From NCBI GenBank assembly GCA_963575745.1, contig CAUYUJ010000130.1, positions 1 through 64,000 on the forward strand: DNA of 64,000 nucleotides, read 5' to 3'. The notes below the pieces were generated by a model. The model was not told the DNA's origin. It searched no databases and was given only the letters and a program-made list of their open reading frames with translations. The stretch is from Prorocentrum cordatum. Taxonomy: Eukaryota. Every line of letters begins with the position of its first letter. The stretch's first letter is position 1. Both the position numbers and the translations under genes were made by a program. This document shows, in pieces, positions 15,555 to 57,493 of the stretch.

Positions 15555-15622
15555 GCGACACAGATTGACAAAACAACGGGGGGTCAGTGAACCTGCCCCC
15601 TACCGCTGTGCACAGCCTGGGG

Positions 15623-18600
15623 TCAGCAGACCTCCGAGCTCTTTGGAAACAGGGGCCCAAGCTGAACCACTATCCAGCGGCCCCGAAACAGTAGCTTCCC
15701 CTGGGCCAGGCCTCTGAGCACCCTCTTGCCCCAGGCCGAGGGGTGCCCACAGACCTGGCCCAGCTTGACAACCTGCGTGGAGTAGACGGCCCCACACCTA
15801 ACACAGACAACTCCGCCAGAGAAAACGCCACGCTCCTCGCTAACCCACCTTCGCAGAGCGTGTCCCCCAGCGAGCACGACACGACGGGGGGGAGCGCTCG
15901 GAGGTGGGGCGAGGGCGGCGGTGGCGGCGGCGGCGGCGGCGGCCAGCTCGCTGGCCTGGCGCCGCGCGGCGCGGGCCGCCTTCATCTGGGACGCCGTGAG
16001 GCGCTCGGTGTCGGCGGCCGCGAGGGGAGCGGCCCTGCCTACCTGCTCTCCCACCGCACACACGAGCCTCGAAAACTTCCGACACCGATCACGTCGCTCG
16101 AAATCTAGGCGCCCCAGAGCCGCTACCTTCTTCGCCCAAAGATCAGCAAAACCGTTGCCCGCGATGAGACGCGGGTCAATAGAACGACGCTGCTCTGGGG
16201 TGGGGTGGGCCCTAACCTTGACAAACCTGACGGAGTCGGGGCCCACCCCACCCCAGTCCTCCAGCTTTGACCAGAGGAGCTCCCAGACGTCAGCATGGGC
16301 CGCGAGCAAAGCACAGCATGCTTCACGCCCACGCTTAGCAATGCCTGAGAACACGAATTCACTGTCAGTGTGGATAGTGACTGGCGGCATAGCGACTCTG
16401 AGAGTGTTCAAAACGGCAACCAACTCAGCGCGATCGATGCACTGGATCGGGCCCTCGACTCCGCCTCCGTAGACGACTGACACACGAAACTCGTCGAGAG
16501 CCCTCGGAGGAGGCGGGTCTGGATGCATTGCAATGACAGCCCAACCTGCGACGGCAGCATTGGGCACATCATGATCAAACATGGAACCATCAACAAACAA
16601 ATCTCCAGTGAGCATGCTACGCTCACCTAGGTAGAACTGCTCTGGCGCAGGCTCTGGCCGCTGCGGAAACCTGTCGAACGGGAGAAGCACACGGCTGCCA
16701 AGTAAATTCACGAGCTCTGTTGGTTCCTGCGGTTGGACACGACGGAGAGGGCCTGCGGGCTGCAAGCCAGCGGAGAATAACCCATCACAAAGCAGATGAC
16801 GGTGATACAACGTGCCTGAAAAGCTGTGACAGATGCGGCAGAGCGGAGATTGGACATATTTGGCCTCGAACATGCGCTGCTGCGTCCACTGAGCACCGAC
16901 GACGACTGACCGAAGATAGGCCTTTTCATCAGGCGACAGCGGTGAAGAACGCCCGAGCAGACTGAGGACTGGCTCGAGCAGCGCACCTGACTTGATCTCG
17001 GGGCAGCCAAGCGTGGTGGAAATCTGCTTCCACTGCCAGGCCTCACAGGCCAGGTCGATGAGCTTCCTTAGCCCATGGACGCAAAATTTGGCCGGCTGTA
17101 TAGTGAGGCCCCAGGGAAACGTCCAAGAACTAAACCCGTCGGCCAGAATACCCAACCGATCGAGCGTGGCTAGGTAGGCCGTGAAAGGCCCCGCAACAGA
17201 CTGCCACGGACTGCCTTTACTGGACTGAGCTCGTCGCTGGGCCTGCCGAATTCCTTGAGTTATTATGTGCTGGGGAACCCACAGCTGCTTCCACGCGGCC
17301 AGCATGGCACAAAGCGGGTCGGCGGAAGCCTTGAAAATAAGGTCAACCCTACGACCAGGGGTGAGCATGAGGCGGAGCGTGAGGGATGCGGAGCTAGTGG
17401 GGCCCTGGTTGCCTACCAATTGCCTAAGCCTCTGGAGCTCCTGCCCATTGGTTCCAGTGACGCTGGTGCCATAGGAAACGCTGGTTTCCACGGTGGCTTT
17501 GACCATGCGTGCGATGAGTCGGCGACGTTTGGCTTTTTGCAAAATCTTTAAACGCCTTGAGCGGACGACGGCAGCAGCCAAGCGCTCTCGCTTAGTGGCA
17601 CGACCCAACCTCCGCCCAGACCCGAAGTCAACCCCCAAGTTCCTTTCAGTGCGAGAGCGCTGCCCTCCCAGGCATTCAAGGCTGGCCTCTAAAGACGTCC
17701 TGAGTGGGGCTACACTGCTCATGAGACGCGTCTTATCTTTCGCCACCAACAGATCAACTTTTTTCAACTGACGGGCTAGCTCGCAACCTGCTGCAGTGAG
17801 GTCTGCATGAACACGCTCCTTTTCACCGAAGCGCTGCAGACCTATGTCATCGACCACTGTAGAAAGTGAAACTGCACGGGCAACTTTGCGGACCTCATCT
17901 AGAGGCTGTAGCAAGACGAGCTGTAACATCATCGTTGCGAACACGCAGCCAGGCAGGACACTCTGTTCTGAAAAGATGGGCTCCGACACAAAGGTGCCCA
18001 TATCTAAAATCCGCGGCTGACGATACAGCTTGATGAGGAGGTACAGTAATCTCATTGGGAACCCTGTGCGTTCTGCGGCGGCCACGAGATGGTGGTGCCG
18101 AATGAGCTCAAAGGCCTTTTTGAGGTCAACCAAAACCGTCCCCGACGCCATGCCTTGGCCATGAGCCCACTCGGCCCACGCGGCCTGCACCCAGACGCAC
18201 TTATCTGCGGCCTTGCCGCGGGTTCCCCAAGAAAAACTTCTGAAATTTCTTCTTTGCCAATCCTGGATCTCGGACTTCCGTAAGCGACACAAGACCCTCG
18301 CGAGCACAGGCAGGAGAGCAATCGGCCGAAAACCGCCCAGGCGTTTGGCCAAGAAGAAAACCTTGACCCACGCGGTGGGCCAGTCAAGCCTCAGCTCAAT
18401 CAAATGCAAAAGCTCGCAAAGCGCGTCCAGGCCCTCGAGGCCCAAATGCAAGACATGCCGCGGGTTAATGCAATCATAACCTTGGCCCGTGGTGGGCTTG
18501 TAGCTTTTGATGACTGCCAGCAGCTCAGGGACGGTCGGACGGGGGGGAGGCTCGAGGAGGGAGAGGTCAGGCCAGGGAAGCGCAGGGTGGGGCTCCGAGA

Positions 18601-24508: not shown

Positions 24509-25560
24509 GCTCCGCGGCCCCCTCGCCGCAGTCGCCAGCGCGCTTGCCGCACCTCCTGCGCCGCACCGCTCGCTGCCGCCGCTGCCGCCGGGCCCCCTCG
24601 CGCGCAGGACAGGCCGTCGCTCTGGGCCCCGCTGCGGGGCGCCTTCCTCGATAGTCATGCACTGGCGCCTCCGGCGCCAGGGGGTCCTCCTCCTCCTCCT
24701 CCTCCTCCTCCTCCTGCCCCTCCCCTCCACCCTCCTCATCCTACGTCCTCCGTCCGCACTCCTCACTCCTCCTCCTCCTCTCCTCATCTTTTTGTTCCAC
24801 AAAATACACAATGTGAAAATACTCTCCCACTTCCCCTGATGGCGTCCCGAAGATATCCGACCCCCCCCGCGTACTGTTTTTTTACACACAGGATTCCCGG
24901 GAAACGGGTTTTCGCCTGCGTTTTTTTTCAAAATGCTGCTCTCGCTGAGGCGCCGGCCTCATTTCTGCTCCCGAATCGTTCCGAATCGTGCTCCCGCTGC
25001 AGCGTGGGCATCATTTTCGGATCGGTGTTTGGCCTCCGTCGTTCAGGATGGCGTTCTCGCCCCAGCGCGGGCCTCTTTCTCGCGCGCCCATCCGCCCGCC
25101 ACCACTGCGCCGCACCACCACACCACCACCAACCACCATCACCACCACCAACACCACCACACCACCACCACCACCACAACCACCACCAGCACGCCACCAC
25201 CACCACCACCACCGCACACCACCACAACCACCCACCACCACACACCACCACCCACACCCAAACACGCACACACGCCCGCAGCACGCACGGCGCACCCACC
25301 ACCCACTACGCACGGCGGCGCGCGGAGCCACAGGTCCGCTTACGACACGCGTCCGCGGATAGAGAAAATCAGGGCGCCATGGTAAGGGAGGGGAGGGAGG
25401 TGTAAGGACGTCAGTATGACGCGAGGCGCACCTAGGATTGTCACTCTGCACTACTCACCACAGAGATTGAACTCCATACTCCCGCCCCGGGAAAAAAAGA
25501 GCGGAAAAAACCCGGCTGCCGCCCTACTAGCACAAAACGCTCACCGACCCTCTAGCTCGA

Positions 25561-25750
25561 AGAAGAAAAACCACATAAGCACAAACTCTTGGCGCTCCGC
25601 GCGAATGTCTTGGATCCGCGCCTGGGCCCCCCGGCGGCGCCTCCGGCGCCGCCCCTGGCGCGCTCCGCGTGCCAGAGAAGAGGGTCCATCGCGGATCCTT
25701 GAAATCCGCGCGGAGCGCCAAAAGTTTATGTTCACGTGTTTTTTGTTCGT
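25561..25750. mobile_element. Fold-back MITE family B; shorter relative at 36726-36818
   Basis: Long imperfect inverted repeats (aaactcttggcgctccgcgcg...cgcgcggagcgccaaaagttt). The second copy has aacttttggcg...cgccaaaagtt and a related core. Confidence 0.65.
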
Positions 25751-26069
25751 TCTATTCGTCCGACCCGATCCCTGCTGTCGGCGCCACCCCAACACACTTA
25801 TACCACATGTGCGTCGCCCCCTCAGGGGCGACGCGCGCACCGAGAAAGCTTATGGTATATGCGTCGTGGCGGGCGCTTTCTGCCCACACCGCTCGGGAAA
25901 CGATATACGACAAGATGGGTATACTAGATGTTCGGGTCGGACGCGCGCCTCCAAGGAGGACATATAGTATTACAGTGCCGTTTTTAATACATGCTCCGAG
26001 TGCGGATCATGTATTAAACATGCAGGGAATTAGTATTAAAAGCAACGGTGACTTCACGCATACATTTTT

Positions 26070-27834
26070 TACCTAACAGCGAAGACTGATAGGTTTATAA
26101 TGGAGTCAAAAGAGAGCATCTGATGACTCCCCAGGGGGGTTCTGGGCGGGAGCCGGACAGGCGAGGACCGGGCTCGTTTTAAGCAAACAGTCACACACTT
26201 CGTGCTCTTCGAGTTCCCAGAACTCCATTCCCGGGCCACATTTTGAATGCCCGGAGCCAACTGTAGGCCACTTCGTGCTCTTCGACTTCCCAGAACTCCA
26301 TTCCTGGGCCACATTTTGGATGCCCGGAGCCAACTGTAAGCCACTTCGTGCTCTTCGAGTTCCCAGAACTCCATTCCCGGGCCACATTTTCGATGCCCGG
26401 GGCCAACTGTAGGCCACTTCGCGGTCTTCGAGTTCCCAAAACTACATTCCCGGGCCACATCCTCAATGCCCGGAGCCAACTGTAGGCTACTTCGTGGTCT
26501 TCGAGTTCCCAGAACTCCATTCCTGGGCCTTATTTTGAATGCCCGGAGCCAACTGTAGGCCACTTCGTGCTCTTCGAGTTCCCAAAATTCCATTCCTGGG
26601 CATGACTTTGAATGCCCGGAGCCAACTGTAGGCCACTCCGTGGTCTTCGAGTTCCCAGAACTACATTCCTGGGCATGATTTTGAATGCCCGGAGCCAACT
26701 GCAGTCCACTTCGTGTTCTTCGAGTTCCCAGAACTCCATTCCCGGGCCACATTTTGAATGCTGAGGCAGGCTGAGGCTGAGGCTGAGGCAGGCTGAGGCT
26801 GAGGCAGGCTGAGGCTGAGGCCGAGGCGGAAGGCAGACTGTGGCTCAGGCTGAAGCAGGCTGAGGCTGAGGCTGAGGCTGAAGCAGGCTGATGCTGAGGC
26901 AGGCTGAGGCTGATGCTCAGGCTGATGCATGCTGAGGCTGAGGCAGGCTGAGGCTGAGGCCGAGGCTGAAGGCAGACTGAGGCCGAGGCTGAAGCAGGCT
27001 GAGGCTGAGGCTGAGGCTGGCTGAGGCTGAGGCTGAGGCAGGCTGATGCTGAGGCAGGCTGAGGCTGAGGCTCAGGCTGATGCAGGCTGAGGCTGAGGCA
27101 GGCTGAGGCTGAGGCCGAGGCTGAAGGCAGACTGAGGCTGAGGCTGAAGCAGGCTGAGGCTGAGGCTGAGGCAGGCTGAGGCTGAGGCGGAGGCAGGCTG
27201 ATGCTGAGGCAGGCTGAGGCTGAGGCTGAGGCTGATGCAGGCTGAGGCTGAGGCAGGCTGAGGCTGAGGCTGAGGCTGAAGGCAGACTGAGGCTGAGGCT
27301 GAGGCTGAAGCAGGCTGAGGCTGAGGCTGAGGCAGGGTGAGGCTGAGGCTGAGGCAGGCTGATGCTGAGGCAGGCTGAGGCTGAGGCTGAGGCTGATGCA
27401 GGCTGAGGCTGAGGCAGGCTGAGGCTGAGGCAGAGGCTGAAGGCAGACTGAGGCTGAGGCTGAAGCAGGCTGAGGCTGAGGCTGAGGCAGGCTGAGGTGA
27501 GGCAGGCTGATGCTGAGGCAGGCTGAGGCTGAGGCTGAGGCTGATGCAGGCTGAGGCTGAGGCAGGCTGAGGCTGAGGCCGAGGCTGAAGGCAGACTGAG
27601 GCTGAGGCTGAAGCAGGCTGAGGCTGAGGCTGAGGCAGGCTGAGGCTGAGGCTGAGGCAGGCTGAGACTGAGGCTGTGACTGCGACTGCCGTTGCCACTG
27701 CGACTTTCATCGCGAATGCGACTGCGATTGCGAGAACAGCAGAATTCTACAACTGGATTCTCATGTGAATCTTAAGGGGAATGCTTCCAGACATGCTCCT
27801 ACACATCGCTGTTAGGTTGCTTTGCTGGGATAAT
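26070..27834. mobile_element. Helentron/HINE-like non-autonomous element, copy A
   Basis: Head TACCTAACAGCG, then 73-bp tandem repeats, a (GCTGAG)n array, and a conserved tail ending CGCTGTTAGGTTGCTTTGCYGGGATAAT (asymmetric subterminal inverted repeat). Confidence 0.65.
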
Positions 27835-27867
27835 TTTCAAACATCAATCATAAACTATATGGGATTT

Positions 27868-28832
27868 TACCTAACAGCGAAGACTGATAGGTTTCTAATG
27901 GGGTCAAAAGAGAGCATATGATGACTCCCCAGGGGGGTCTGGGCGGGAGCCGGACAGGCGAGGGCCGGGCTCGTTTTAAGCAAACAGTCACACACACTTC
28001 GTGATCTTCGACCTCCCAGAACTCCACTCCCGGGCCACATTTTGGATGCCCGGAGCCAGCTGTGGGACACTTCGTGCTCTTCGACTTCCCAGAACTCCAT
28101 TCCTGGGCCACATTTTGGATGCCCGGAGCCAACTGTCTTCGACTTCCCAGAACTCCATTAGCCACATTTTGGATACCCGGAGCCAACTGTAGGCCATTTC
28201 GTGCTCTTGGACTTCCCAGAACACCATTCCCGGGCCACATTTTGAATGACCGGAGCCAACTGTAGGCCACTTCGTGCTCTTCCACTTCCCAGAACTCCAC
28301 TCCCAGGCCACATTTTGAATGCTCGGAGCCAACTGTACGCCACTTCGTGCTCTTCCACTTCCTAGACTTCCAAGACTCATCATCTTCATCATCATCATCA
28401 TCATCGTCGCCGTAGCCTTCTTGGCTACAGCCCTGCTTTCGAAGATTTCCTTTCAAAGGAACTGCGCAGCGCCTACTCGTTCATCGCTCCTACTCGTCAC
28501 TCCTCCCATCACTCCTACTCGTTCACTCCACACACTACAACTACTACTTCACTGTTACCACCACTACCATCACTACTACTTCTACTGCTACTACTATTGT
28601 TACTATTACTGCTGCTGCTGCTGTTGCTGCTGCTAGTGTAGCTATTGCTACTGCAACTACTGGCAGTGCCACTGCGACTGCCGCTGATGTTGCCACTGCG
28701 ACTGCCACTGCGAATCCGAATGCGACTAAGAGAACACCAGAATTTTACAACAGCACTCTTACATTAATACCGCAGGCAATGTTTCCAGCTATGCTTCTAC
28801 ACATCGCTGTTAGGTTGCTTTGCCGGGATAAT
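27868..28832. mobile_element. Helentron/HINE-like element, copy B (internal (CAT)n/(CTA)n/(CTG)n instead of GCTGAG)
   Basis: Same head, 73-bp repeats and tail as copy A. Confidence 0.6.
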
Positions 28833-29442
28833 TTTTCAAAAATCATTCATGTATTTTAAATCCCATATAGTTTAAAATCCCATGTGCAAGAAAAACTGCC
28901 TTGAAATATGTCCCTGTGCGTCCCATGCTGGGCGCGGCCTCGTGGCCGCGCGCTGGCCCGCACACGGCCAGCGCCCTCCTCCGGACGGACTCGGCGTCGG
29001 CCTGCGGTCCCTGTCGTCGTCCCCCCCCTCGCCCCCGTTCTTTCTCCCCCACCGCAAGGTCACCCTGTCGCTGTTACTGCTACACGTTGTTCCTTCCTCA
29101 TTATTCGAAAGTGCTATGATTTTTTGGGGGGCCAAGATCCTTTCATCTCTACCTGTTCTGTCCCGGGCCTCTTCTTGGCCACCAGGGGGCCAGGAACCAT
29201 GAGAAACGAGCACAATGAGAAGTGAGCACGCTTAGAAATGAACGACGTGTGCTCCCCCCATCAAGCGCGAGGCGCCTCTGACACCACTGTGCTGGCTCGG
29301 GGCACGCCTGCCCACCGGACACCACTGCCTCCCCCTCCTCCTCCTCCTCCTCCTCCTCCTCCTCCTGTTGAACCACTTGAACGCCGCATAGGACTCCCGC
29401 GCAGTCGCAAGAGGCCTAGCCAAAATACGACAAGAGAAGACC

Positions 29443-32400
29443 TTACCTCCCTTGGGGCACCTGGACGCTTCGTCCGAACACCGCACGGGAGCTGGGGTCC
29501 TTGCCTGCAATCAGCATGGCCAAGGACTTCTCAGCGGCCGAATTACGCGGGCGCTCGTGACACGGGACTTTCAGGTACCGACTGCGAGCAACCCCGAACG
29601 CAGCGCATTTCCGACACCACACCACAGTCCCAGACGGCCCCGAGTCCATCCAAAGAACGTGGGAATGGTGCGCAGACGCGGCGATGGCAGGGATGCCACG
29701 GCACGGGAAGACGGCGAGGGCTCCTCTGGACCTCGCCTTCGTCCCGCACTCCGCACAAACAAAACTCCTACCCGCTCTACAGATCGTGTGTCCGTTGGGG
29801 TCCGCAACTGCTTGGAGCTGTGGGGCGTCTCTGGCGAGCCTCGTGGACTTGGGGGCACGATACCTCTCCACATCCTTGAGCCCAAGCCTAGAGACCTCAC
29901 CCAACATCAGCCCGAGAAAACGACCAACCTGCATTATACCAGGGGCGACCGTCTTGTACCAGCTCCTCGCAGCCTCGGGCTGAGCCTGGAGCTGGGATCG
30001 TTCACGCGCCAAGCGGTCGGCCTCACGATTGCCCCGCCAGGCGTAGAAGGGATAGTTCCTAGCAACAGCATGATCATACGAAAGGTGAGACTTGATCTTG
30101 CACATCTGGATATTGCCCCATCCTATATCGCGAGCTTTGGCCAAGACCTCAACCCAGACCTCACCAAACGCAAACCTCGAGACGTCCTGGTCTGGGCCAA
30201 AGCTCCACACATCAAGCAACACTTTGCAATCTGTCCAGATCTCTAAAGGGCCAGCCTCTGCTAGCTTCAGAGCCATAAAGAGAGCCCACAACTCCCCGCC
30301 GAGGTTGGTCTGCAGCGGGTGCGGGAGGGGGCCGTACAGGCTCCCCAGAACCGTGCCTTGCCGATCGACCGAGACTGCCGCCCAGCCTGCGCGAGAACAC
30401 CACGGCAGGCCTGGGTCAATCGCTGAGCCATCCAAGCAGATGATTCCTTCCAGAAAACCATGCCTTGGGAAAACATGCCACTGCCACCCCTGCTGTACTA
30501 TCGGGCTTGGTGTGTAACTAATTGGCGACGCCATCAGACCTCTAGTGTAAAGCAGGCGCCATCTCGGGTCCGTGGCTGTGGACCCCGCATGAACGAGACG
30601 CTGAAACCCTAGGGTCGGACGGTGCCCGTGGAAAGCAGGGCAGACATAGCATCGATGCTTCTTACAGCCCCAAGGATGCCCACAAACCTAGCGCTCAGCG
30701 GAGGCAGAGCGCCTATCCAGGAAAAGGTCAACCTGGGCAGCCATGCCCCCCGACGCCACAGCGGCGAGGAGAGAGGCTTCAAGGCCTTCACCTGAGGCGC
30801 GGAAATCTTGGCACACCTCTTGCAAAGGCTCTAAGCAAGGGCGAAAGGGAGCATCGCTTCCTACTGCCTCATCACTAATGGTCAGGTCGCGAAGGAGCAT
30901 GTCCTTCGTGCCAGCGTCCACAATCGTTTTTACCGTCCGACTCCCGTATGCTTGTAGATCCAGACAGAGACCAGTGTCCGTTTCCCAGCAGTCCCATCTC
31001 CTAGGTTGCCACCCAAGACGTCTCAAGGTCATCAACATGGCCCCCGCAGGGCTTGTGACTTGCTGCCAACCTAGTACCGTCTGACAAAGTCCTTTGAACA
31101 CAACTTTCATCTCATCGTGCGGAGCCCAGCCCAGATGTACAGCATTAGCCCAAGACATCATGGGGGCGGAGTTCGCAACGTACGCTGGGTCGGCCAGCGG
31201 CGTCGGCGACAGCATGCAACCAATCGTGCGACTCCTGCCATTGGCCTGCCCGAACACCGCCTCGCCCGCCACCGAGCGCAGCTGCTGGAGGGACCTGTCC
31301 GACACTCCAGTGACCGAGGCCCCGTAGAGTCCTGCTGGGTTGGCACCTGCGCGCGCGATCCTGGTCAACTTCTTGAAGGGCGATCTCAACCCTCGGAAGC
31401 GGTGGGCCCTTCGCTTGAGCTTGGCCACTCGGGCCTTCTGCACGAGGTTCCTTCGGGCCTCTCCCATGGTGAAATCCACTCCAAGATTTCTCACCACCGA
31501 GGCTCCAGTGAACCCCCACCTGGCCAGGGCTCTCTCGGAACTCTGGACCGCATCTTGGTGAGTCGACGCGATTTTGCCCTTAGCCCTGGCCAGAACAAGG
31601 TCCAATTCCTCCAGCTTCCTGCAGGTGATTCCGACGACGATAGGCAACCTGTCGCGCACAAACTTCCTGCTACCGCGAACACGAACCGTGATGTCATCAA
31701 CCGCGTTGTACACTCGTGCAAAGGGAAATTTGGCCATCACGCAGTCCAACATGCGGATCAACAACACGTTCAGAAGCGTCGTGGCGAAAGTACACCCTGC
31801 AACAATCGTTTGCTCTGTCATTACTTGTGCAGATGCAACCTGGCCAACCGCGAGAAGACGAGGGCAGCGGTGTACACACAGCAACAAGCGTAGGATGTCT
31901 AACGGGAAATTCGTCATCTGGGCCGCATCGATCAAATGTCCATGCAACGCTCTCTCGTACGCCTTGGACAAGTCGAGGAGGCCCGTACCTGCACAAGTGT
32001 TCGTAACCCGAGCATGCTCTGCAGTAAAGGCCTGCTCCCAGACCCCACGTTCACAAGGCATGCCTGTGCTTCCGTACAAGAGGTCACGCTTATTCTTCTT
32101 CTCCCATTCGGGAGCTACAGATCTGGCACAGCGCCCCCGTACTCGCACAACGGTGGAAAGGAGACCAATGGGCCGAAATCCGCCCTCCGGCTTCTCGAGC
32201 ATTGCAATCATAATCAAGGAAGCCTGAGACGGGAGTCTGCCCGTGTCAAGCATCCAGTGCCACAGTAAGCCCAGGACTGTGAGGCAGTGGTCAGACAAAT
32301 ACACGAGGTCACGAGGGCTCAACCTGTCTGCCCCGACAGCCGTCCGCTCCTTGAAGGTCCTTGCCACCTTGCGGATGGTGTGGCAGTCAAATGGCGGGAT

Positions 32401-33960
32401 GCTGGCGGCCTCCTGCGGATCGATGCCTTCCCTCTCCAGCATGAGGGACAGGCACTTGAGTGGGTCGAGCTTCTCTTCGGCGGAATCCTCGACCGCGTCC
32501 TCCACGGGCGCCGTTGCTCCCCAGATCTCACTCCACTCTTGCTGCAACGTCTCGACTTGCTCACCGGGCCCCATAGGAGCCCCGTCGGGTCCTGGCTCGG
32601 GTGATTTCGTGAATCGGTGGGCTGTTCCCGCTCCGTGCTCACACGCTTCTGCAGCCCACCTCCTCCAAGCTGTGCAGCGGGCCCTCGCAAAGGCCTGCTC
32701 CAGCAAGGAGGCGAAGTAGGCTGCCTCTCTTGAATACTCATCCAGCTGCCCATCTGTCAGAGCCAGAATGCCTTCGAACGACGGGCGCCAACGTCTCCAG
32801 AAGTCAACCTCTTCGCCAGGCGGCCGACTGCCCAAGATCTTAGAAATCAATTGCATGCAATGCTGTGGGAAAAGGCATTCCGCCCGACGAGCAATGCAAG
32901 CCAGCTCCTGAAATCTAATCGAGACCTTCCTCCACCCACGAGCCGTAGCACAAGATAGAGCATGCGGGCCTCCTGAAGTCTGCAGCTCCTGCACCCTGCG
33001 CAACTTCCAGCCTTGCCCCCGACCGCGATACTTCCTCTCGTCTGGGCCCTGGATCCCATGGACCGAAATGAGTTCTGTCTCCACGAGATCATAGAACATC
33101 TGGCAAACTCGATCCAATGCTTCCTGCCCACAGCGCTCGCTCGAATGTGACGCGTCCTCTCCCCAGTGAAGAATAGCCTCCTCAATGGGCCCCCAGTCAG
33201 GCGGGGCAGGCAAGGGCAACTGCGGAGCCTGAGTTGGGAACCTCCTGGGACCTGACAGCGCCATATACTCAGTGCGTACAAGTTGTGGTCGCAACCGCAA
33301 GGCAACTGGGTAATGAGGTGTAAGACATGAGCCCTGCACTAGTTCAACTCGTTCGATTGATGGGGCTAGACCAGACGAGACCATGAAAAAGTCAAGCTCC
33401 CTCCAAACATGTCCTTTCCTGCGCGTGGCTACCCCGCATGCTGCAATATGTCCTCCCACTTTGCTAACCCAGCCAAACGTTCTGAGCTGCGATGGTGGGC
33501 AATTCCAGTCTCCGCCAACCACAAACGGTAGACGCAAAGAGCGAAGCACTTCTCCCAATCGAAACAAGACCTGCGAACCGACATCTCCCAGGGGGTCCCC
33601 TGTAGGCAAGTGCAGCGAGACAGCGAGGACCCCCCCTGGGATGATACTGTTAACCCATGCCATCGTGATCCTCGGGGCCGAAGGCAAGGGCTTCCCTTTC
33701 CACGGAGCGGCAGACATCCCAACATGAACTGGAACAGCAATGCCTACTCCTGATGATAACCCCCCCGCCTCAGTGATTCGGCAAGGACTAAACATGGCTG
33801 ACCACGACCAGCTCTTAACCTTAGCCTCCTTCTCATCCTTGGCGGAGGGGTGCACTCCCACTTCCTGCAACAAAACAACGGCCGCGCCTGCAGCCTCCTT
33901 CTCCAAGAACTTCTGACAGTTACACCAATCTGAAGCGTTGGCCGTCAGGACCGTGTACAC
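29443..33960 (-). pseudogene. LINE-B ORF2 (EN-RT-CCHC-RNaseH-Cys fingers) with one in-frame TAG at 30690-30688
   Basis: EN: LTANAS, LLQEV, GGDWN, LDFF, TPH. RT: FRPIGLL, LDLSKAYE, VAGC, AVDD. Reading through the TAG gives VCGHPWGCKKHRCYVC, in frame with RNase H (LDGS, GGEL, WTDC, KIKSH, GNREAD). Confidence 0.9.
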
Positions 33961-34120
33961 ATCGGGCCGAGCCAGCCCGTCCCTGCTACCCTCGCATTCC
34001 TGCGTTCTGAGCCGCCTGCACGGTTGTGGGCGCCAAACCTCCGCTGCTGCCTCCTCCTCCTGCAGTCGCTGCTCCACCTCCCTTTCTGCCCTTGGCCCCC
34101 CCCCCTTGCTGGCAGCAGCC

Positions 34121-35190
34121 TTAGCTGCCGCGTGCAGTTCCTCTGTGGACTTGGGGGGCCCAGGGCTCGAATCGGAAGAAGGTGTTGCCTGCTGCTGCCG
34201 GCTGAGGTGCTGCTGCTGCTGCTGCTGCTGCTGCGGCTGCTGAGGCCGACTGAGCTGGCTGCTGACGCTGCTGCTGCTGCTGCTGACCCACGGAGCCCCC
34301 AGTAGCATCGCCATCGTCACCGCCAGCTGTAAGCCCCTCCTCAGTGCGACGCTTCTTTGCTGCAAGCCTCGCTTTGAGTTCTTTTTGCTGGTTAATGGCA
34401 TCCTTGGCCTGCTCCCGAAAGGGCCCAAAAGCCTGCAGCGCTGCCTCCTTAAAGATCTTAGCCAGGTGCTCCTTCCTCTTCTTCGCCTCCTCCACCTCCT
34501 CAGCCGATGGCTCCCATCCCGCCTCCTCCAGCCCAAAAAGGCCGCCGTCATCCAACTGAACGCCTTCAAGACACCCGTCCATGAGAGACTCCAGGGATAG
34601 TACTGGCTTGGCTGGCTGAGGGGGCTGCTGGGGCTCCTGGGGCTGCTGGACTGTGGAGGCGAGCTCCCTGACAGCTGTGGCGTACTGCTCTTTGGCCCTC
34701 TCGAGGGCCACAAAGGCGTCGGCACTGTCCTTCTTCGCTTGCTCCAATGATTCCTGCAGATTCGTGGCTCTGTTGACTGCTCGATCCAAAGCGGCCTGGC
34801 ACCTCTCCATCGCCTGCTTCGCGGGCCCCCACTGCAGCTTCGGCGGCTGCTCGAGGGCACGAAGCTTCTCACGATGCTTGCTGGCAGCCTCGAAGTCTGA
34901 ATTGGCCTCGAGAAACTGGATGACCGAGTTGAGTTCGCCGTTGGTACTCCCTGGAGTTCCTGACGAAAGATTGTTAGATGCCGACCAAGTCCCAGGAGCA
35001 GAAACAAGATCCCCAACACCAGGAAGAGCAGACTGACGTGCACCCCACACTCCCTTGGCCCCCGACCGGTTATCTTGATATTCCCCGACTCCTGTCCACT
35101 GGCGCCCGCAGTGCTTGCACCACGTCCACCAGTACTCGTTCGCTTTGCACCCGCACGCCCCACAACACCAATTCCCAGCCCGAGAACCAT
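34121..35190 (-). pseudogene. LINE-B ORF1 (RanBP2-like finger + coiled coil), probably frameshifted just after the AUG
   Basis: WCCGACGCKANEYWWTWCKHCG plus a coiled coil. The first AUG after the SL (35190) is out of frame with the finger. Confidence 0.7.
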
Positions 35191-35298
35191 GCGCTGGCAC
35201 AGCGCGCCCCCGCACGCCGACCGAAGGGTGAGGCCGTGGCCCCCCGCACAGCACACTTGGCTACTCGAGCCGAGGTTGGGAAGTTAAGGAGCAGGCCC

Positions 35299-35320
35299 CT
35301 TGAGCCAAAATGGCTACGGT
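35299..35320 (-). other. Exact dinoflagellate spliced leader (ACCGTAGCCATTTTGGCTCAAG)
   Basis: 22/22 match to the DinoSL consensus. Confidence 0.97.
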
Positions 35321-35985
35321 CCTCCTCCTCCTCCTCCTCCTCCTCCTCCTCCTCTCCTCCTCCTCCTCCCCCTCCTCCCTCCTCCTCCTCCTCCTCCTCC
35401 TCCTCCTCTCCTCCTCCTCCTCCTCCTCCTCCTCCTCCTCCTCCTCCCCCTCCTCCTCTCCTCCTCCTCCTTCTCCCCCCCTGGTGCACCCGCTCCTCGG
35501 GGGGCCACCCCCCCCGTGGGGCCAGGCCTCCCCCCTTGTGACCGCCCCCGGGGCCTGCCCCGTCGGCGCGGCCTCGTGGCCGCCGGCGCCGGGCCACGCG
35601 GCGCGCGCCCTCTCATCTCCTCCCTCCTCCTCCTCCTCCCTCCCCTCCGCTCTCCTCCCTCCCTCCTCCTCATCCTCCTCCTCTCCTCCTCCTCCTCCTC
35701 ATCCTTCTCCTCCTCTTCCTCCGCCCCCTCCTCCTCCTCCTCCTCCTCCTCCTCCTCCTCCGCCCGACTTCGCCCGGGCCCGAGCCCCTGGCCTCGGCCC
35801 CGGGCCCGAGCCCGAGTCACGGGTCGAGCCCGAGCCCGAGCCCGAGCCCGGGCCGACGTCCTGCCGTCGCCTCTCCCCTCCTCGTCGTCCTCCTCCTCCT
35901 CCTTCCTCCTCCTCCCCCTCCTCCTCCTCCTCCTCCTCCTCCTCCCCCTCCTCCTCCTCCTCCTCCTCCTCTTCCTCCTCCTCCG
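35321..35985. repeat. (CCT)n tracts with GC-rich and (CCCGAG)n interruptions
   Basis: Directly visible. Confidence 0.9.
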
Positions 35986-37280: not shown

Positions 37281-38020
37281 CTGAAATCTGACCCCTTCCG
37301 CCCATCCGTCACCATTGCGTAGAATTATTATGCATCCGCCGATGGGTGTCCTAGCCGACCTGGATCCCTCAAGTGATCCCATCGTGTGACGCGCATCGGA
37401 GGGGGAGCAGGAGCCCGCAGATGAGCAGGATGATGAGCACGATGAAGATTAGGATGAGGACATCGGAAGATCAGGAGCAGCAGGAACAAGAGCAAGAGCA
37501 GGATAAGTGTGAGGAGCAGGGGGATGCGAAATATGGGGAAGGAAGGAGGTGGCAACGAAGAAGAACCGAATGATCAAGACACATAGCCCGCGCTGGGGAG
37601 AGAGCGCCAAACTGAACGACGCCGGCAAAACGTTGATCCTGAAATGCGGACAACGATGTAGCAGGAGCACGCTTCTCGAACGGTGGATAACGTTATGTGG
37701 GGACAGTGTCAGATTGAACGCCAGTTCGAACACTCTTGCGTGTAACATGAGTAGGTGAGATAGGTGGGGAAACAATTCAGAGCATCATGGGAGAGAGGGT
37801 CGCACTAATCATATTGCGTAATTTTGGAAGGAGAGGTACATCCCGGGGGTCGGAGTCCGAGTTGCCATGTGACCTCACAGCGAGGGGAAGTGATTTGGGA
37901 ACGAGGGGTGAAGCCGACTTTATTACCTAACAGCGAAGACTGATAGGTTTCTAGTTGACTCAAAAGAGCTCACAGATCACTCCACAGGGGGGTCCGGGCA
38001 GGCGTTGGGAGTTGCCGGCC

Positions 38021-38324
38021 GACTTGAAGGGTAGCTCTTTGGGAGATGTTACAGTATCGGGAGCATAGCTCGCGCGCCGCTGCCTTGGGCTCAAGGCACG
38101 CGCGCCCTATTTGCCCGGACACCGCGAGTGTTCGCTATGTGCTGGAAAGATCATTACATCGATCTTATCCTATCTTATCCGCCCACCCCTCATACTGTAC
38201 CTTCACAGCTACAGCAGAGCGATGGACGCTATTTGCCATCCGATGTCCACGGTCGGCGCCTTGGAATCGGATGCTATATGACAGGCTATATGCCCTATTT
38301 GAGTTACCAAGCTCACTTTCGACT
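38021..38324 (+). repeat. 5' LTR
   Basis: Direct repeat of 53815-54118, about 5 substitutions by eye. Confidence 0.93.
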
Positions 38325-41300
38325 TGGTAGCGGAGCTGGCCGCACTCTCGTGTGGTCAGCTCTTGCTCTTCTCAGCCTCACATTCTTCGGCACGATCTTC
38401 GTGACCGCCTACTACCCTGCGCCACCACTCCCAGTACATTTACGAGGATCTGTTCAAGAGCAAGAAGCTACACGAGAGGTACGACGTCTAGACGACCAGA
38501 TTGGTACCATATACGCTTCATCATTGCGTTACTATCAACCGCTCGGCAACGAGCCAATAACGCAATACCTGAAGCTAGGGCGGGGAAACCCGCCAGACAG
38601 AGCGCCTCGAAGACTCGACAAGGCGCTACCCCAGCGTGACACCGCTCATCATAACCATTCTTCGTTACACATTCTTGGGCTAATCGTTTTCGCTATCATA
38701 TGGTTCGCGCTGGGGGCAGCAATCGCACACATGCGTCGGGGAGATAACAGCACCGATGGGCAAACACATGGCCCATACTGGGACCCTCAGGGTAATGTAA
38801 CTTTTCGTGAGTACATTTACGAGGTCAACGCGTGGCTCAACGTTACAAGCGGACGTATGACGCCACAGGCCCAAGCGGCCGCAATACAACGCGGCCTGGG
38901 AGGCCTAGCGAGGACACTCGCCATGAGGGTACCGCCTGACATTATAAACTATGGTGCTGACATTGATGGGGTCCACACGGACCCAGTAACTTACATCATG
39001 TTCCTCCTCAGCATGAAGTTCGAACGCCTGGAAGATGAGCGACAGTTCACTTCCGGCACACAACTCATCGACTTCCATGTGCCTCACGGGGAACGAATCG
39101 ACGTCACTCTTACCCGATTCGAAATGGCCCGACTTGAGGCACAGTCGGTGGGATTCGACCCTCCTAACTTCCAACTGCTAACTACTATCCTATTCCGCGC
39201 CTTAGGCGTCGGCAGCCAGAAAGCCATGCAACTCTCGCAGCCACTCAACCACCAAATGCCTCGAACACAACAACAATATGATGAGTTGCTGGAAAGGATG
39301 CGTTCGGTAGGTCACCTATCCGAACGATCCCCTGGCAACGTAGGATCCGTGTTTGAAAGAGGAAGGGGATCTGGTAGTGGAAATTTCTACACTACCTTGA
39401 CTATTGAAGTCCAGCCTGGAAACGGGCCCTCAAACATATGGGCCGATGACCCAGGAGAATCCATTGCTTTATTAGCAGGGGGTCGATCACAACCAAGCTG
39501 GGCAACCAGCCCTCCTTCTAGAGAACCACAACCACACCGCTCGTTATGGGGGGAATCAAATCCCCTAACCGACGGTGTATCCACTTATTTAGGAGACGAA
39601 GATTTCGATTCCGGCACCGACACAGACACTATATCATCAGATGGTGTTGAAGCTCTAGATTGGTCAGATATCATGAATATGGATAACGACAATCAGCGTG
39701 CTGAGCATTTATTCTGGCTGTTACAACAGGCTAAGCGAAGGTGGAGGAGGTTCGCACGAAAACCAGCGCGTCGTGTTAGAAGGAGGATACGCAGAAGTTT
39801 TAAAGGAAAGGGTAACGGCAAGCGTGGTCGTCGGAGGTTGAACGGGCGAGGTATCGCGGCATTTCTCCAGAGGCTCTCAGATGAACAACATGATGAGATA
39901 TTCTTTGGGGGAAAAGGCCGCGGTAAAGGCCGTGGAGAGACCTCAGGGAAAGGCAAAGGTAGGCGGGGGAACCCGCGAGGTAGAGACGGCCAGGTTCTCA
40001 AATGTCATGGGTGTGGTAGTACCGATCATCTTGTGCGAGATTGTCCAGCGAAGGGAAATGGAAAGGGCGTGTCGTCCGAAGTCCATTTCGGCTCAAGCAC
40101 ACCATCCATTGAGTATCTGAGCCTCCAGGACTTTGAGGCTATGGAACAGATATTTGTCACATGGGTCGTTGGCATGGACAACGTTGACGAGCTCGAGGGG
40201 TATGGTCATGGATTATACGCGTATTACCTCGAGTACGTCCGCCGGTTCGTCACGGGCAGTAATGAACTCACTCCCGTGGAACACGGTACGCTCGGAAACG
40301 AGCCTCTTTCCTTCTTCGACTGGATGTTCGGGAACCCAGGCAACATCATGGCCTACGAGAGCGACGGCGAGGACACCACTATAGAGGCTTCGCCTTCCGA
40401 GGTTCAACAGAACCTCGAACCTCCGCCCGAAATCCCGCCTGGACACAGGCCTTTTCTGCTGGGAGAATATCCCCATACTATTGAAGACTTAATTGAAATG
40501 GAGTCTCAAGCATTTGTTCAGGCCTTCATTGCAGGTGAACCAGGTTCTCCGTTCATACCTCCTGGTTCGCTTGCTCCAGGCGAATATGGGCCGCGTACAC
40601 TTTTGCAGACCCTCATGTGGATGCATGAGATACTTGCAATTGCATATCCTGAGAGTCAAGAACAAATTGAAGCTGGTATTATGACAGATAATGATAATGA
40701 TGCTTGCGGTAGCTCAGAGCTACTCTTGGCAGCGTTGTCTCTCATCGACAGTATAAATCCTCAGGAAGTGCAGCGACACTTAGTATACTCCCATGGTAGA
40801 TGGCGTCGTGCCCTGGAAATGGCAATGGCTATGCGTGGTCATGATCTTCCCCCGCCAGGATGGAATCTCCAGGAGCTGGGGATGAGGCCAAACCACACGG
40901 CCATGCGTAACATTGCTAGGCAGCCTATGCTCGTCGAAGACCCTGAGCCGACGACTGCGCCTCCTACTCCAGGGCAGCCGAGTGACGGCCAGACGCCGGC
41001 CATGCAGGGAAACCTGCCTTTACCAGATGCGCCAATGGCCATCCTAATTGGTAGTTCGACATCAGAAGAAGTAGAAGGCGATGGTTGTGGGTTAGATGAG
41101 GATGACGTCACCATCCTCATGATGGACGTGACTGGTGAGGAAGAGGTCGATTTCGACCCTGATGAGTCTGAACCATCATCACCATCGGCACAAGAGCCAC
41201 TTGCGCCGAGCTCCACCCAGCAGGGAGACCTGCCTCCATCGAGCGATCCACCCGGGATCGCAGAGGAGCCTCCTCAAGCACCTCCAACGGGTGCCGCCCC

Positions 41301-45441: not shown

Positions 45442-46947
45442 ATGCCAATAATCCTGAAACTGATAGTCCGTCGTTAGACCTATCAGAATCCTCAGCGGCG
45501 TCAGCAGCAGCAGCCAGAGCCGTCAACATCTCAGCGGCGAATGAGGAGTTCGAGGAGTGGCTGCGGTACCGGGATCACGTCATGAACGAAGGGCTGCAAG
45601 ACATCGCCCTTCACTCGTACCTAGCGCTGATAAGGCGCACTACCCGCGAGCAGTATATGAGCATACGTGATGAGTATGCCAACTGGCGGGGGGAGCGTGG
45701 TGATCACGCCCAGCACGTGTCGTACTTCCAGTACATTGACCTGGCACGCATGGCCGAGAGCGAGTCGCATGCCAGTGTCGTGCGGGGTAACCCGCCAGGG
45801 AGTGCGAATGTGCCGCGGGGAAACCCGCCTACCGACGCAGCCGACACTTCAGAAACTGTGCACATCAAGCAGCCGAATAAGACGTTCTTGGATGATGGTG
45901 GAAATTCCATACTCATCGACGTCGGTTCGAAGATCAACATCATGGGCGAGAACACGAGCCGTAAGTTCGTTCAGGTTGCTGAGTCACATGGTCGTGCATG
46001 TACATTCGAGCCCCGCTCTCGTTTGCATATCAACGGAGTGGGAGAGGGGTCGGCCCCAGCGGATACTGCAGGCACATTTAGCATTGCCTGCGAGTACCAG
46101 GGGTCAGCCCAACACGATTCATACAAGACGAACATTGTGTCAGGCTTTGTCCTGTTTTGAATTTCTATTGCCGGTCCTGTTCTTTGTTTTTTGTGTTGTG
46201 GTCTTGTGGACGTTGGTTTTTTGTTTTTATGCATTCTGTTGTGTTCTTGTCGTTGTTCTTGTCTTTTTGGGGCCCCGGTTTTGTGGAAAGGACCTGCCAG
46301 CCATCCTAGGTCTCGATAGTATGCAGGACAAACGCACGATCATCGTGCTTGAACGAGGCCAGGAAAAGCTGATATTCCCGGGTAAGGGGCAGGTCAAGAT
46401 GGAGCTCCCGGAAGGCTCCAAAATCATGCCGACGACGAAGTTGCCGTCAGGGCATCTGTCGATCAGGTGTGATCGTTTTGGAGCTGCGGGGCAACCCGCC
46501 TCGAGCTCAAGCAGCACGTCCTTCCAGACAGCGCTGACAGGCGAGCCGACCCCAGCGCAGGAGCGCAATCAATTGCAGGGAAACCTGCCCCAGGGGGTGA
46601 TGGAGACGCTCGCCAAGGCCACCATGCGAGGCGACAACATCGACGATCTCGAGACGTTCGAGTGTTTTGTTGCCAGGACACTGGCCCTGCATGGTGGTAG
46701 TGTACCCATGGACGCTGTGCAGTCCCGCCGTAAAATAGTGATGGGATACACTAATCGTGAATTGCATACGGTCAGCGACGCTAGGTCCAAAGGCGCGCTG
46801 AAACAGTTGATGGATAATCCATCGATGCTGACAGCATTTGCGGAGCAATCCGCCGCTGAGGCCACGGCGCGCTGCAGCGCTGAGCTCCAGCATCTGAGGG
46901 AAGCCCAGATGTTGGCAGATATTGTAGGCACATCTTCTTCATCTTGA
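45354..46947 (+). pseudogene. Aspartic protease region, interrupted by a 136-bp T-rich insertion (46146-46281)
   Basis: ILIDVGSKINIMG (Asp at 45918), HINGVG and PAILGLDSM. Removing the insert restores NIVSG-CGKDLPAILG in frame. Confidence 0.8.
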
Positions 46948-57476: not shown

Positions 57477-57493
57477 TGTGTGTTTATTATTAT

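What the first reader, a model, noticed from the sequence alone, without database searches (positions are those of the whole stretch)
15555..35320. Two different full-length LINEs both begin exactly at nucleotide 1 of a DinoSL
Seen: LINE-A (5' end 21284) and LINE-B (5' end 35320) are clearly distinct families, yet each starts with a perfect 22-nt SL (T- and A-variant) joined directly to (AGG)n. Established: DinoSL is trans-spliced onto mRNAs, and SL relics mark retroposed cDNAs. Inference: these LINEs have their 5' end defined by host trans-splicing rather than an internal promoter or ribozyme. Any read-through transcript could then be trimmed, capped and copied in full. Such RTs are natural candidates for the machinery behind dinoflagellate cDNA recycling. 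LINE-A looks intact.
Basis: partly seen in the sequence, partly recalled or inferred. Interest (0 to 1): 0.82.

Follow-up and report, generated by a model that had tools for sequence, protein, structure and literature searches.

The report
Dinoflagellate LINEs that start with spliced leader
Two different jumping genes in a dinoflagellate genome each begin with a perfect copy of the short leader that the cell splices onto its messenger RNAs, which suggests they were copied from leader-capped mRNAs and makes them candidates for the enzyme that writes host mRNAs back into the genome.

Summary
On the minus strand, two APE+RT+RNase H non-LTR retrotransposons share only 26% ORF2 identity. Each begins at nucleotide 1 of a perfect 22-nt DinoSL: 21284..21263 (T variant) and 35320..35299 (A variant). 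LINE-A has two intact ORFs. LINE-B is degenerate. New points: (i) (AGG)n is also the 3' tail of both elements, so the upstream (AGG)n is best read as a microsatellite target or tail homology. (ii) In LINE-A a decayed, full-length second SL follows the perfect one, which indicates at least two rounds of SL addition. (iii) No SL-gene remnant lies at the 3' flanks and the endonuclease is APE-type, so a CRE/SLACS/NeSL-type insertion is rejected. (iv) Five diverged metagenomic relatives all start at an invariant AGGTTGGCTCAA, which includes the last 10 nt of the SL. SL-derived 5' ends therefore recur in this clade, but there as a truncated, inherited relic. Not shown: RNA evidence for trans-splicing, and the 5' junctions of other genomic copies. 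No genome is held, and the read-laying tool skipped the junction. The trans-splicing origin is well supported by inference (about 0.7). Promoter independence and a role in cDNA recycling remain hypotheses. This is a new variant of known kinds.

The parts
21285..21353 (-). Near-perfect (AGG)23 directly upstream of the LINE-A 5' end. It ends ...GAGGAG just before the SL, so an AG dinucleotide abuts SL nucleotide 1.
   Evidence: 23 copies, 96% matches
21263..21284 (-). Perfect 22-nt DinoSL, T variant, forming the 5' end of LINE-A
21243..21262 (-). Decayed full-length SL relic (TCCGTAGCGGTTTGCTCAGG; about 17 of 22 SL positions kept, 3 substitutions and 2 deletions), directly behind the perfect SL
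   Evidence: read by eye. table 4 shows indel variants over 21215-21249 in other contigs of run X1.
21118..21242 (-). LINE-A 5'UTR; no Rfam match
20035..21117 (-). LINE-A ORF1, 360 aa: N-terminal CxxC...CxxC zinc finger, coiled-coil and Ala-rich middle. No significant Pfam family.
15623..20008 (-). LINE-A ORF2, 1461 aa, intact: APE-like N-terminus (homologous to the PF03372 region of LINE-B), RT (PF00078), RNase H (PF00075), C-terminal Cys motifs
15555..15622 (-). LINE-A 3'UTR, 68 nt
15187..15554 (-). LINE-A (AGG)n 3' tail and flank, 368 nt; regular next to the element and degenerate further away
   Evidence: 121.7 copies, 86% matches
35321..35476 (-). (AGG)n directly upstream of the LINE-B 5' end
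   Evidence: 53 copies, 91% matches
35299..35320 (-). Perfect 22-nt DinoSL, A variant, forming the 5' end of LINE-B
34121..35298 (-). LINE-B 5'UTR and degenerate ORF1. The zinc-finger codons near 35170..35095 lie in a different frame from the ATG at 35190. The coiled-coil ORF is at 34810..34121.
30688..34120 (-). LINE-B APE (PF03372) and RT part of the 1500-aa frame, ending in a stop at 30688
29443..30534 (-). LINE-B RNase H-like (21.3 bits, below the Pfam cut-off of 25.8) and C-terminal Cys-motif ORF, separated from the RT frame, so the element is broken
29367..29442 (-). LINE-B 3'UTR
29328..29366 (-). LINE-B (AGG)13 3' tail
22181..22202 (-). Third SL-like sequence (19 of 22; the three differences are A-to-G), followed by about 300 nt of non-LINE sequence
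22203..22628 (-). Degenerate (AGG)n directly upstream of the third SL-like sequence

Best explanation
Two families of APE-type non-LTR retrotransposons sit in a Prorocentrum-like dinoflagellate genome. Their RNA templates were spliced-leader trans-spliced mRNAs. Reverse transcription ran to the capped 5' end, so each full-length copy begins with the complete 22-nt DinoSL. Both elements carry an (AGG)n 3' tail and lie inside (AGG)n arrays. They most likely integrate by target-primed reverse transcription, with the (AGG)n RNA tail pairing with a nicked (CCT)n strand. This would explain why the SL abuts (AGG)n. After insertion, a transcript that reads in from upstream can be trans-spliced again. 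Splicing could use the AG that ends the encoded SL, which would replace it with a fresh SL. If that AG is mutated, as in the LINE-A relic (CTCAGG), splicing could use the AG that ends the (GAG)n flank, which would give the observed SL + full-length relic tandem. Shown: the anatomy, the domains, the distinctness of the families, the tails, the relic, the absence of SL-gene flanks and of known ribozymes, the multicopy and recent status of LINE-A, and SL-derived 5' ends in relatives. Inferred: trans-splicing of the LINE RNA, TPRT on (AGG)n, and the choice of acceptor.
For: The SL is exact and non-random (3 matches, 0.00 expected). The two families share 26% ORF2 identity and no nucleotide similarity, yet both carry a 22/22 SL, with different first nucleotides (T and A). 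The SL was therefore acquired independently and recently in each family, not inherited from a common ancestor. LINE-A has a perfect SL followed by a decayed full-length SL, with intact ORFs, which points to an old SL kept in the lineage plus a new one at the tip. An AG lies immediately upstream of the LINE-A SL. (AGG)n lies at both ends of both elements. Three of the 4 SL-like sites in the window abut (AGG)n, although such arrays cover only about 3% of the strand (my sum). None of the 134 distinct SL sites in IMG/VR contigs showed (AGG)n upstream when I read the list by eye. The 3' flanks are not SL-related. Rfam gives 0 matches at gathering score in the window and nothing inside either 5'UTR at E<=1. 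LINE-A is multicopy with young copies: 503 contigs of run X1 were laid, 88 of them at >=99% identity. Close protein fragments are labelled Prorocentrum cordatum, and one is a transcriptome-derived peptide at 95% identity. In 5 of 5 related metagenomic elements with a definable 5' boundary, homology starts at an invariant AGGTTGGCTCAA. A sixth element, L142, has TTTGGGCTCAAG about 215 nt upstream of its ORF1 ATG. One relative, L134, has an (ACAT)22 tail, so microsatellite tails occur elsewhere in the clade.
Against: There is no RNA evidence. The SL is genome-encoded here, so trans-splicing of the LINE transcript is an inference. Only one full-length copy per family was seen, and the junctions of other copies could not be read. 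No genome is held, and read laying skipped 21276-21330 as repeat. Depth over 20972-21165 (5'UTR and start of ORF1) is 2.2 against 40-124 in ORF2, so full-length copies are few. None of the 61 metagenomic relatives has a full SL on the element's strand at up to 4 mismatches. The only match was a 4-mismatch hit on the opposite strand of L137. The 5 relatives with a defined boundary share the same truncated relic and have unrelated flanks without (AGG)n. That pattern fits an inherited 5' end rather than a new SL at each cycle. The (AGG)n upstream is purine-rich, so there is no obvious polypyrimidine tract for a 3' splice site. The (AGG)23 upstream of LINE-A is nearly perfect, whereas the distal part of the 3' array is degenerate. 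A simple 'inserted into one old array' picture is therefore incomplete. No target-site duplication can be defined inside a microsatellite.
Confidence: 0.7

Rival explanations
1. The SL is an inherited, encoded part of each element. It was captured once and is now a fixed 5'UTR segment that may act as a core promoter or initiator. Transcription would start at or near it from the element's own or a flanking promoter, and trans-splicing would play no regular part in defining the 5' end.
For: The 5 diverged metagenomic copies all begin with the same truncated AGGTTGGCTCAA. This segment is invariant while the neighbouring 5'UTR varies, as expected for a constrained, inherited 5' end. Song et al. 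2017 (PMC5585692, passages seen) report that the TTTT/TTTG/TTGG parts of DinoSL relicts are preferentially retained, with the highest identity where a promoter is expected. In trypanosomatids, which also trans-splice, LINEs use an internal promoter (Pr77) that gives unspliced transcripts (PMC1874656 and PMC8190864; title and start of abstract only).
Against: Two families at 26% protein identity both carry a 22/22 SL with different first nucleotides. In LINE-A a perfect SL sits in front of a decayed SL, so the SL was added more than once in that lineage. A promoter that starts transcription downstream of the SL would lose the SL from the next copy unless trans-splicing restored it.
Confidence: 0.2
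2. The elements inserted site-specifically into SL RNA genes, as CRE/SLACS/CZAR and NeSL do, and the SL is target DNA.
For: It is known that non-LTR elements can target spliced-leader exons (PMC4640811, passages seen).
Against: The whole 22-nt exon lies on the 5' side only. The 3' flanks are (AGG)n followed by unrelated sequence, with no SL remainder or intron. The 5' flank is (AGG)n, not an SL-gene upstream region. The endonuclease is N-terminal and APE-type, not restriction-like. Rfam finds no SL RNA or other RNA gene in the window.
Confidence: 0.03
3. The SL was added by RT template switching at the 5' end of an unspliced LINE RNA onto an SL-bearing RNA or a free SL exon. This would resemble the U6-L1 chimeric retrocopies of mammals (recalled, not checked in any call).
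For: Template switching is a general property of LINE RTs (established knowledge). The tandem SL-SL and the inverted (CCT)n/(AGG)n palindrome upstream of LINE-A show that the region has a complex history.
Against: A switch onto SL RNA should copy its intron part too, and a switch onto another mRNA should bring non-SL sequence. Here the junction is exact to the nucleotide in both families, and again in the relic.
Confidence: 0.04
4. Assembly artefact: SL-primed cDNA or chimeric reads were built into the contig.
For: SL-primed cDNA libraries are used in dinoflagellate genome projects (PMC8045281 methods passage).
Against: Both SLs lie internally in a 64-kb window with genomic (AGG)n and further sequence upstream. 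The same architecture occurs twice, in different elements.
Confidence: 0.02

Closest known systems
DinoSL-relict retrogenes ('mRNA recycling'). Slamovits and Keeling 2008 is recalled. Song et al. 2017 (PMC5585692) and PMC12014239 were seen as passages.
   Same: The retroposed unit begins with the SL, and tandem SL relics mark repeated rounds. The SL at DNA level is evidence of an mRNA template.
   Different: Here the retroposed unit is the autonomous LINE itself. The LINE-A relic is full-length, not the usual 5'-truncated form. The 3' end is (AGG)n rather than a poly(A) remnant. Song et al. noted only that the GO term 'RNA-dependent DNA replication' is enriched among relict-bearing genes. The preprint 10.1101/783902 called retroposition and RT genes 'independent processes'.
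SL-exon-specific non-LTR elements: CRE1/2, SLACS and CZAR (trypanosomatids), NeSL-1 (nematodes)
   Same: A LINE is physically joined to spliced-leader sequence in an organism that trans-splices.
   Different: Those elements encode a restriction-like endonuclease and sit inside SL genes, with SL-gene sequence on both sides (PMC4640811; details of the insertion site are recalled). Here the endonuclease is APE-type, the complete SL is at the 5' end only, and the flanks are (AGG)n.
Microsatellite-targeting or microsatellite-tailed LINEs. Kojima and Fujiwara 2004 is cited in PMC4640811. Togen (TG)n and HERO were seen. The R1-clade names Waldo, Mino, Kibi, Koshi and Dong are recalled.
   Same: The same simple repeat serves as 3' tail and flanking target, which implies tail-target pairing in TPRT.
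   Different: The repeat is (AGG)n. Two families that are only 26% identical use the same repeat in one genome. Specificity rests on 2 copies (plus one SL unit) and is not proven.
LINE 5' ends defined by RNA processing or by an internal promoter. R2 and L1Tc HDV-like ribozymes are recalled. For L1Tc/ingi Pr77 (PMC1874656), only the title and start of the abstract were seen.
   Same: Each is a solution to the same problem: how a promoter-less insertion regains a full-length, translatable 5' end.
   Different: No ribozyme was found. The proposed processing is host SL trans-splicing, which also supplies the cap. Pr77 elements give unspliced transcripts.

Membership tests
APE-type non-LTR retrotransposon (LINE) | N-terminal apurinic/apyrimidinic-type endonuclease | tested here: met
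   LINE-B matches PF03372 at 30.3 bits (cut-off 24.5). LINE-A residues 6-230 align to that region, and D148, D185 and H210 are conserved in A1. LINE-A alone gave no Pfam APE hit.
APE-type non-LTR retrotransposon (LINE) | Reverse transcriptase with a catalytic DD motif | tested here: met
   LINE-A matches PF00078 at 42.2 bits. D720 and D721 are invariant in 20 sequences, LINE-B included. LINE-B alone gave no Pfam RT hit but aligns across the RT region.
APE-type non-LTR retrotransposon (LINE) | No LTRs, a 3' tail of simple sequence, and a multicopy family with 5'-truncated members | tested here: met
   (AGG)n tails. 503 contigs were laid in run X1, with depth 40-124 in ORF2 against 2.2 near the 5' end. 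No repeats of the element ends were found in the window.
A named LINE clade (L1, I, Tad1, R1, Jockey and others) | Placement in an RT phylogeny with reference elements | not tested
The PDB sequence search gave 0 hits. The best database relatives are unnamed, at about 30% identity.
SL-gene-specific elements (CRE/SLACS/NeSL) | Restriction-like endonuclease downstream of the RT | tested here: not met
   The endonuclease is APE-type and N-terminal. Downstream of the RT lie RNase H and Cys motifs.
SL-gene-specific elements (CRE/SLACS/NeSL) | Insertion inside an SL gene, with SL-gene sequence at the 3' flank | tested here: not met
   The 3' flanks are (AGG)n followed by unrelated sequence. No further SL sequence lies nearby apart from the sites described.
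DinoSL-tagged retroposed cDNA | The SL forms the exact 5' end of the inserted unit | tested here: met
   The upstream sequence is unrelated (AGG)n.
DinoSL-tagged retroposed cDNA | Tandem relic SLs from repeated rounds | tested here: met
   LINE-A has a relic at 21262..21243. LINE-B has none.
DinoSL-tagged retroposed cDNA | The transcript carries a trans-spliced SL at RNA level | not testable with these tools
   No RNA run was listed. All runs laid were DNA contigs.
Microsatellite-specific LINEs | The same repeat lies on both sides of independent insertions | tested here: inconclusive
   True for both elements and for the 5' side of the third SL unit. That is only 2-3 insertions, with no empty sites. 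(AGG)n is common on this strand of the window.

The most novel reading that the evidence does not exclude
These LINEs have a promoter-independent life cycle that relies on the host's SL trans-splicing. Insertion into (AGG)n, together with the AG that ends the encoded SL, would give every copy a ready trans-splice acceptor. Any read-through transcript would then be trimmed exactly at the element's first base, capped with a fresh SL, translated, and copied in full. In that case the 5' end renews itself at each generation. The same intact RT (LINE-A) would be the enzyme that writes SL-capped host mRNAs back into the genome, the long-sought machinery of dinoflagellate mRNA recycling.
Probability: 0.3. 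Interest if true: 0.8.

Novelty: new variant of a known kind. Interest (0 to 1): 0.62.

Why it matters
Dinoflagellate genomes hold many retrogenes tagged by spliced-leader relics, but the reverse transcriptase responsible is unknown. The papers read here name LINEs, LTR elements or retroviruses only as possibilities. This locus shows an intact, recently active LINE that was itself copied from a leader-capped RNA through to the first nucleotide. That gives a concrete candidate enzyme and a testable model for how promoter-less LINE copies stay expressible in an organism that trans-splices its nuclear mRNAs. It also means that counts of 'retrogenes' based on upstream DinoSL relicts will include LINE copies. 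Finally, (AGG)n arrays may be preferred landing sites. In five literature searches and the passages read, I found no explicit description of LINEs that begin with the DinoSL. The nearest is an indirect GO enrichment in Song et al. 2017.

Tried and rejected
- Whole-genome census of copies: no genome is held for this window.
- Notes from earlier scans: none, by place or by words.
- Word-index protein search with LINE-A ORF2 residues 480-1300: no hit at E<=0.001 in the near length class. The full HMMER search then found 4888 relatives.
- SL scan of IMG/VR: 119 loci with 134 distinct SL sites. Nearly all are AT-rich giant-virus MAG contigs, and tblastn found no LINE homologues there.
- (AGG)3-SL pattern in prokaryote genome contigs: 0 hits.
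- LINE profile A2 in genome contigs and in viral contigs: no confirmed relative.
- The 20-sequence alignment A1 was too divergent for the search for related loci. The 4-sequence alignment A2 worked.
- Sequencing runs: no RNA holder was listed. Laid contigs are about 200-nt unitigs, and the tool skipped 21276-21330 as repeat. The junction in other copies therefore stayed unread, and the output tables were truncated. X3 laid nothing and X4 laid 2 weak pieces.
- PDB sequence search with ORF2: 0 hits.
- Rfam: nothing at gathering score. The 57 sub-threshold 'miRNA' hits at 21360-21468 only reflect a palindrome upstream of the (AGG)23, not the LINE 5'UTR. Nothing for the LINE-B 5' region.
- tRNA scan: none.
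- Target-site duplications: not definable in a microsatellite. No obvious TSD was seen by eye for L121 or L122.
- I did not run structure prediction, complex prediction or the protein atlas, because they would not bear on the 5'-end question.
Full report
**What is there.** The minus strand of the window carries two non-LTR retrotransposons.

LINE-A runs from 21284 down to 15555. It has a 22-nt DinoSL (T variant, 21284..21263) and a second, decayed SL (21262..21243). A 125-nt remainder of the 5'UTR follows. ORF1 is 360 aa (21117..20035) and ORF2 is 1461 aa (20008..15623). A 68-nt 3'UTR ends at 15555.

LINE-B runs from 35320 down to 29367. It has a 22-nt DinoSL (A variant, 35320..35299) and a degenerate ORF1. 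The ORF1 zinc-finger codons and coiled-coil part lie in different frames. The APE-RT frame ends at 30688, and a separate RNase H/Cys-motif ORF follows (30534..29443). The 3'UTR is 76 nt.

Pfam finds RVT_1 and RNase_H in LINE-A, and Exo_endo_phos in LINE-B. The two ORF2 products align over 1055 residues at 26% identity, E=1e-88. There is no nucleotide similarity and no further copy in the window. The 21-nt SL core matches 3 times with up to 3 mismatches, against 0.00 expected.

1. The (AGG)n is not special to the 5' junction, because both elements also end in it. LINE-A is followed by 368 nt of (AGG)n (15554..15187). LINE-B is followed by (AGG)13 (29366..29328). Elements with the same simple repeat as 3' tail and as flank are the pattern of microsatellite-tailed or microsatellite-targeting LINEs (PMC4640811, passages). 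I read the upstream (AGG)n as the target, or as homology with the tail.
2. LINE-A has two SLs in tandem. The outer one is perfect. The inner one is full-length but has 3 substitutions and 2 deletions.
3. A third SL-like sequence lies at 22202..22181 (19 of 22). It also follows a long (AGG)n directly, and it heads about 300 nt of non-LINE sequence.
4. A fourth SL-like sequence lies at 40076..40097 on the plus strand. It sits inside the long ORF of an LTR element and is not preceded by (AGG)n.

So 3 of the 4 SL-like sites in the window abut (AGG)n. Such arrays cover only about 3% of that strand (my sum).

**Origin of the SL.**

An insertion into an SL gene is excluded. The whole exon lies on the 5' side. 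The 3' flanks hold no SL remainder. The 5' flank is a microsatellite. The endonuclease is APE-type rather than the restriction-like enzyme of CRE/SLACS/NeSL. No Rfam family reaches its gathering score in the window, and neither 5'UTR matches anything at E<=1. I therefore found no known ribozyme.

Two arguments from the sequence favour an RNA-level origin by trans-splicing:

- Two families as distant as 26% protein identity cannot have inherited an unchanged 22-mer from a common ancestor, and they carry different first nucleotides. The SL was therefore added independently and recently in each.
- In LINE-A an old, mutated SL has stayed in a lineage whose ORFs are intact, and a new perfect SL sits in front of it. 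That is the known signature of repeated trans-splicing and retroposition (PMC12014239 and PMC5585692, passages).

The relic is full-length, which needs an acceptor AG exactly at its 5' border. The flank of LINE-A ends ...GAGGAG immediately before the SL. The relic's own terminal AG is mutated (CTCAGG). This leads to a simple model. Normally the AG that ends an encoded SL is reused, so the leader is replaced. When that AG is lost, the next AG upstream, supplied by the (GAG)n flank, is used. This model is inference.

**Other copies and relatives.** No genome is held, so I used public collections.

The full HMMER search found 4888 relatives, 346 of them at E<=1e-30. The best full-length hits are about 30% identical. 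Close fragments are labelled Prorocentrum cordatum (86% and 65% identity). One peptide at 95% identity comes from a transcriptome-based protein set. The window is thus probably from Prorocentrum or a close relative. The transcriptome peptide is only a weak hint that the family is expressed.

One DNA run (X1) holds 43% of the sampled words of LINE-A. Of its 503 laid contigs, 88 are >=99% identical, 134 are 95-99%, 174 are 90-95% and 107 are below 90%. Depth is 40-124 in ORF2 but 2.2 over 20972-21165. This is a multicopy family with young members, mostly 5'-truncated. The tool skipped 21276-21330 as repeat, so the SL junction of other copies could not be read. Indel variants over 21215-21249 show only that other copies share the 5'UTR next to the relic.

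A profile search of metagenome contigs gave 61 related loci. None has a full SL on the element's strand at up to 4 mismatches. The single match was a 4-mismatch hit on the opposite strand of L137. Six contigs have more than 3.3 kb upstream of ORF2. Five of them (L121, L122, L128, L129, L136) belong to one family. Their mutual homology starts exactly at AGGTTGGCTCAA. This segment is invariant although the copies are otherwise well diverged, and the upstream flanks are unrelated. TTGGCTCAAG is the last 10 nt of the DinoSL. The sixth contig, L142, has TTTGGGCTCAAG about 215 nt before an ORF1 with the same kind of zinc finger as LINE-A. These elements have no (AGG)n anywhere, and one relative ends in (ACAT)22.

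SL-derived 5' ends therefore recur in this LINE clade. In that family, however, the SL is a truncated, inherited and apparently constrained relic. This result argues against 'a fresh full SL at every cycle' as a general rule. It keeps alive the rival reading that the relic serves as a fixed 5' end or promoter element.

**Mechanism, with odds.**

- Most likely (about 0.7): the templates of both window copies were SL-capped LINE mRNAs that were reverse-transcribed to the first nucleotide. Integration used the (AGG)n tail on (AGG)n/(CCT)n DNA.
- Less certain (about 0.3): the elements depend on trans-splicing instead of a promoter, and their RT makes the SL-tagged retrogenes.

Two points weigh against the retrogene link. 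LINEs with specific, non-poly(A) tails generally act on their own 3' ends (established knowledge of 'stringent' LINEs; recalled). The window also shows an SL relic captured inside an LTR element, so LTR-element RTs meet SL-capped RNAs too.

**Novelty.** I ran five full-text searches and read passages of PMC8045281, 10.1101/783902, PMC12014239, PMC3942190, PMC11453091, PMC10666404, PMC10235124 and PMC5585692. None states that dinoflagellate LINEs begin with the DinoSL. The preprint 10.1101/783902 concludes that retroposition and RT genes are 'independent processes'. Song et al. report enrichment of 'RNA-dependent DNA replication' among relict-bearing genes, which is an indirect precedent. Supplements of these papers were not opened and may list such genes.

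Given that dinoflagellate nuclear mRNAs are generally trans-spliced, the finding is a logical corollary of known biology rather than a new principle. It is nonetheless concrete and undescribed as far as I could see, and it supplies an intact candidate enzyme. I rate it a new variant of a known kind, with interest 0.62.

Noticed in passing
IMG/VR loci L001-L119 (e.g. L011, L024, L051, L106): The exact 21-nt DinoSL core occurs at 134 distinct sites in 119 loci. Nearly all are AT-rich giant-virus MAG contigs. Each site lies directly behind a conserved AT-rich motif and in front of gene-like sequence, and some show tandem SL copies (L024 at 6001/6051/6101). It looks as if giant viruses, presumably of dinoflagellates, encode the host leader at the 5' end of many genes.
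   Followed up: no
window 21884-22202 (-): A third SL-like sequence (19 of 22, all three differences A-to-G) follows (AGG)n and heads about 300 nt of GC-rich non-LINE sequence that ends in an A-rich stretch. It may be a short retroposed SL-capped RNA. It is followed by (CCT)n on the same strand, not by an (AGG)n tail.
   Followed up: partly
window 21360-21883: About 450 nt of (CCT)n (minus-strand reading) meets (AGG)n at a near-perfect palindrome centred near 21405. This gives many sub-threshold 'miRNA hairpin' Rfam hits. It is an inverted microsatellite junction just upstream of LINE-A, of unknown origin.
   Followed up: partly
window 38019-54112 (+): An LTR retrotransposon of about 16 kb: 300-nt direct repeats at 38019-38318 and 53813-54112 (98% identical). 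It holds a 2434-aa ORF with a CCHC knuckle, an RNA 2'-phosphotransferase Tpt1/KptA domain (75.8 bits) and a RING finger. Downstream there is a weak copia-type RVT_2 match (27.0 bits, below the Pfam cut-off of 31.6).
   Followed up: partly
window 40076-40097 (+): An SL-like sequence (about 20 of 22 with one inserted base) lies in frame inside the LTR element's long ORF, just after the zinc knuckle. It has no (AGG)n upstream. It may be a captured SL-capped cDNA.
   Followed up: partly
window 26196-28366 and 54160-58372: Arrays of a 73-nt satellite alternate with (GCTGAG)n-type 22/155-nt repeats. They recur on both sides of the LTR element and between the two LINEs.
   Followed up: no
window 840-4943: About 4 kb of degenerate (CA)n/(CACACAC)n with extreme GC and AT skew.
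   Followed up: no
L134:4334-4421: A metagenomic relative of these LINEs ends in (ACAT)22, so microsatellite tails of different kinds occur in the clade.
   Followed up: no
proteins P0056, P0161, P0162: Peptides filed under a prasinophyte transcriptome (Pyramimonas sp. CCMP1952 in EukProt) include one that is 95% identical to LINE-A ORF2. This suggests dinoflagellate sequence in that data set.
   Followed up: no
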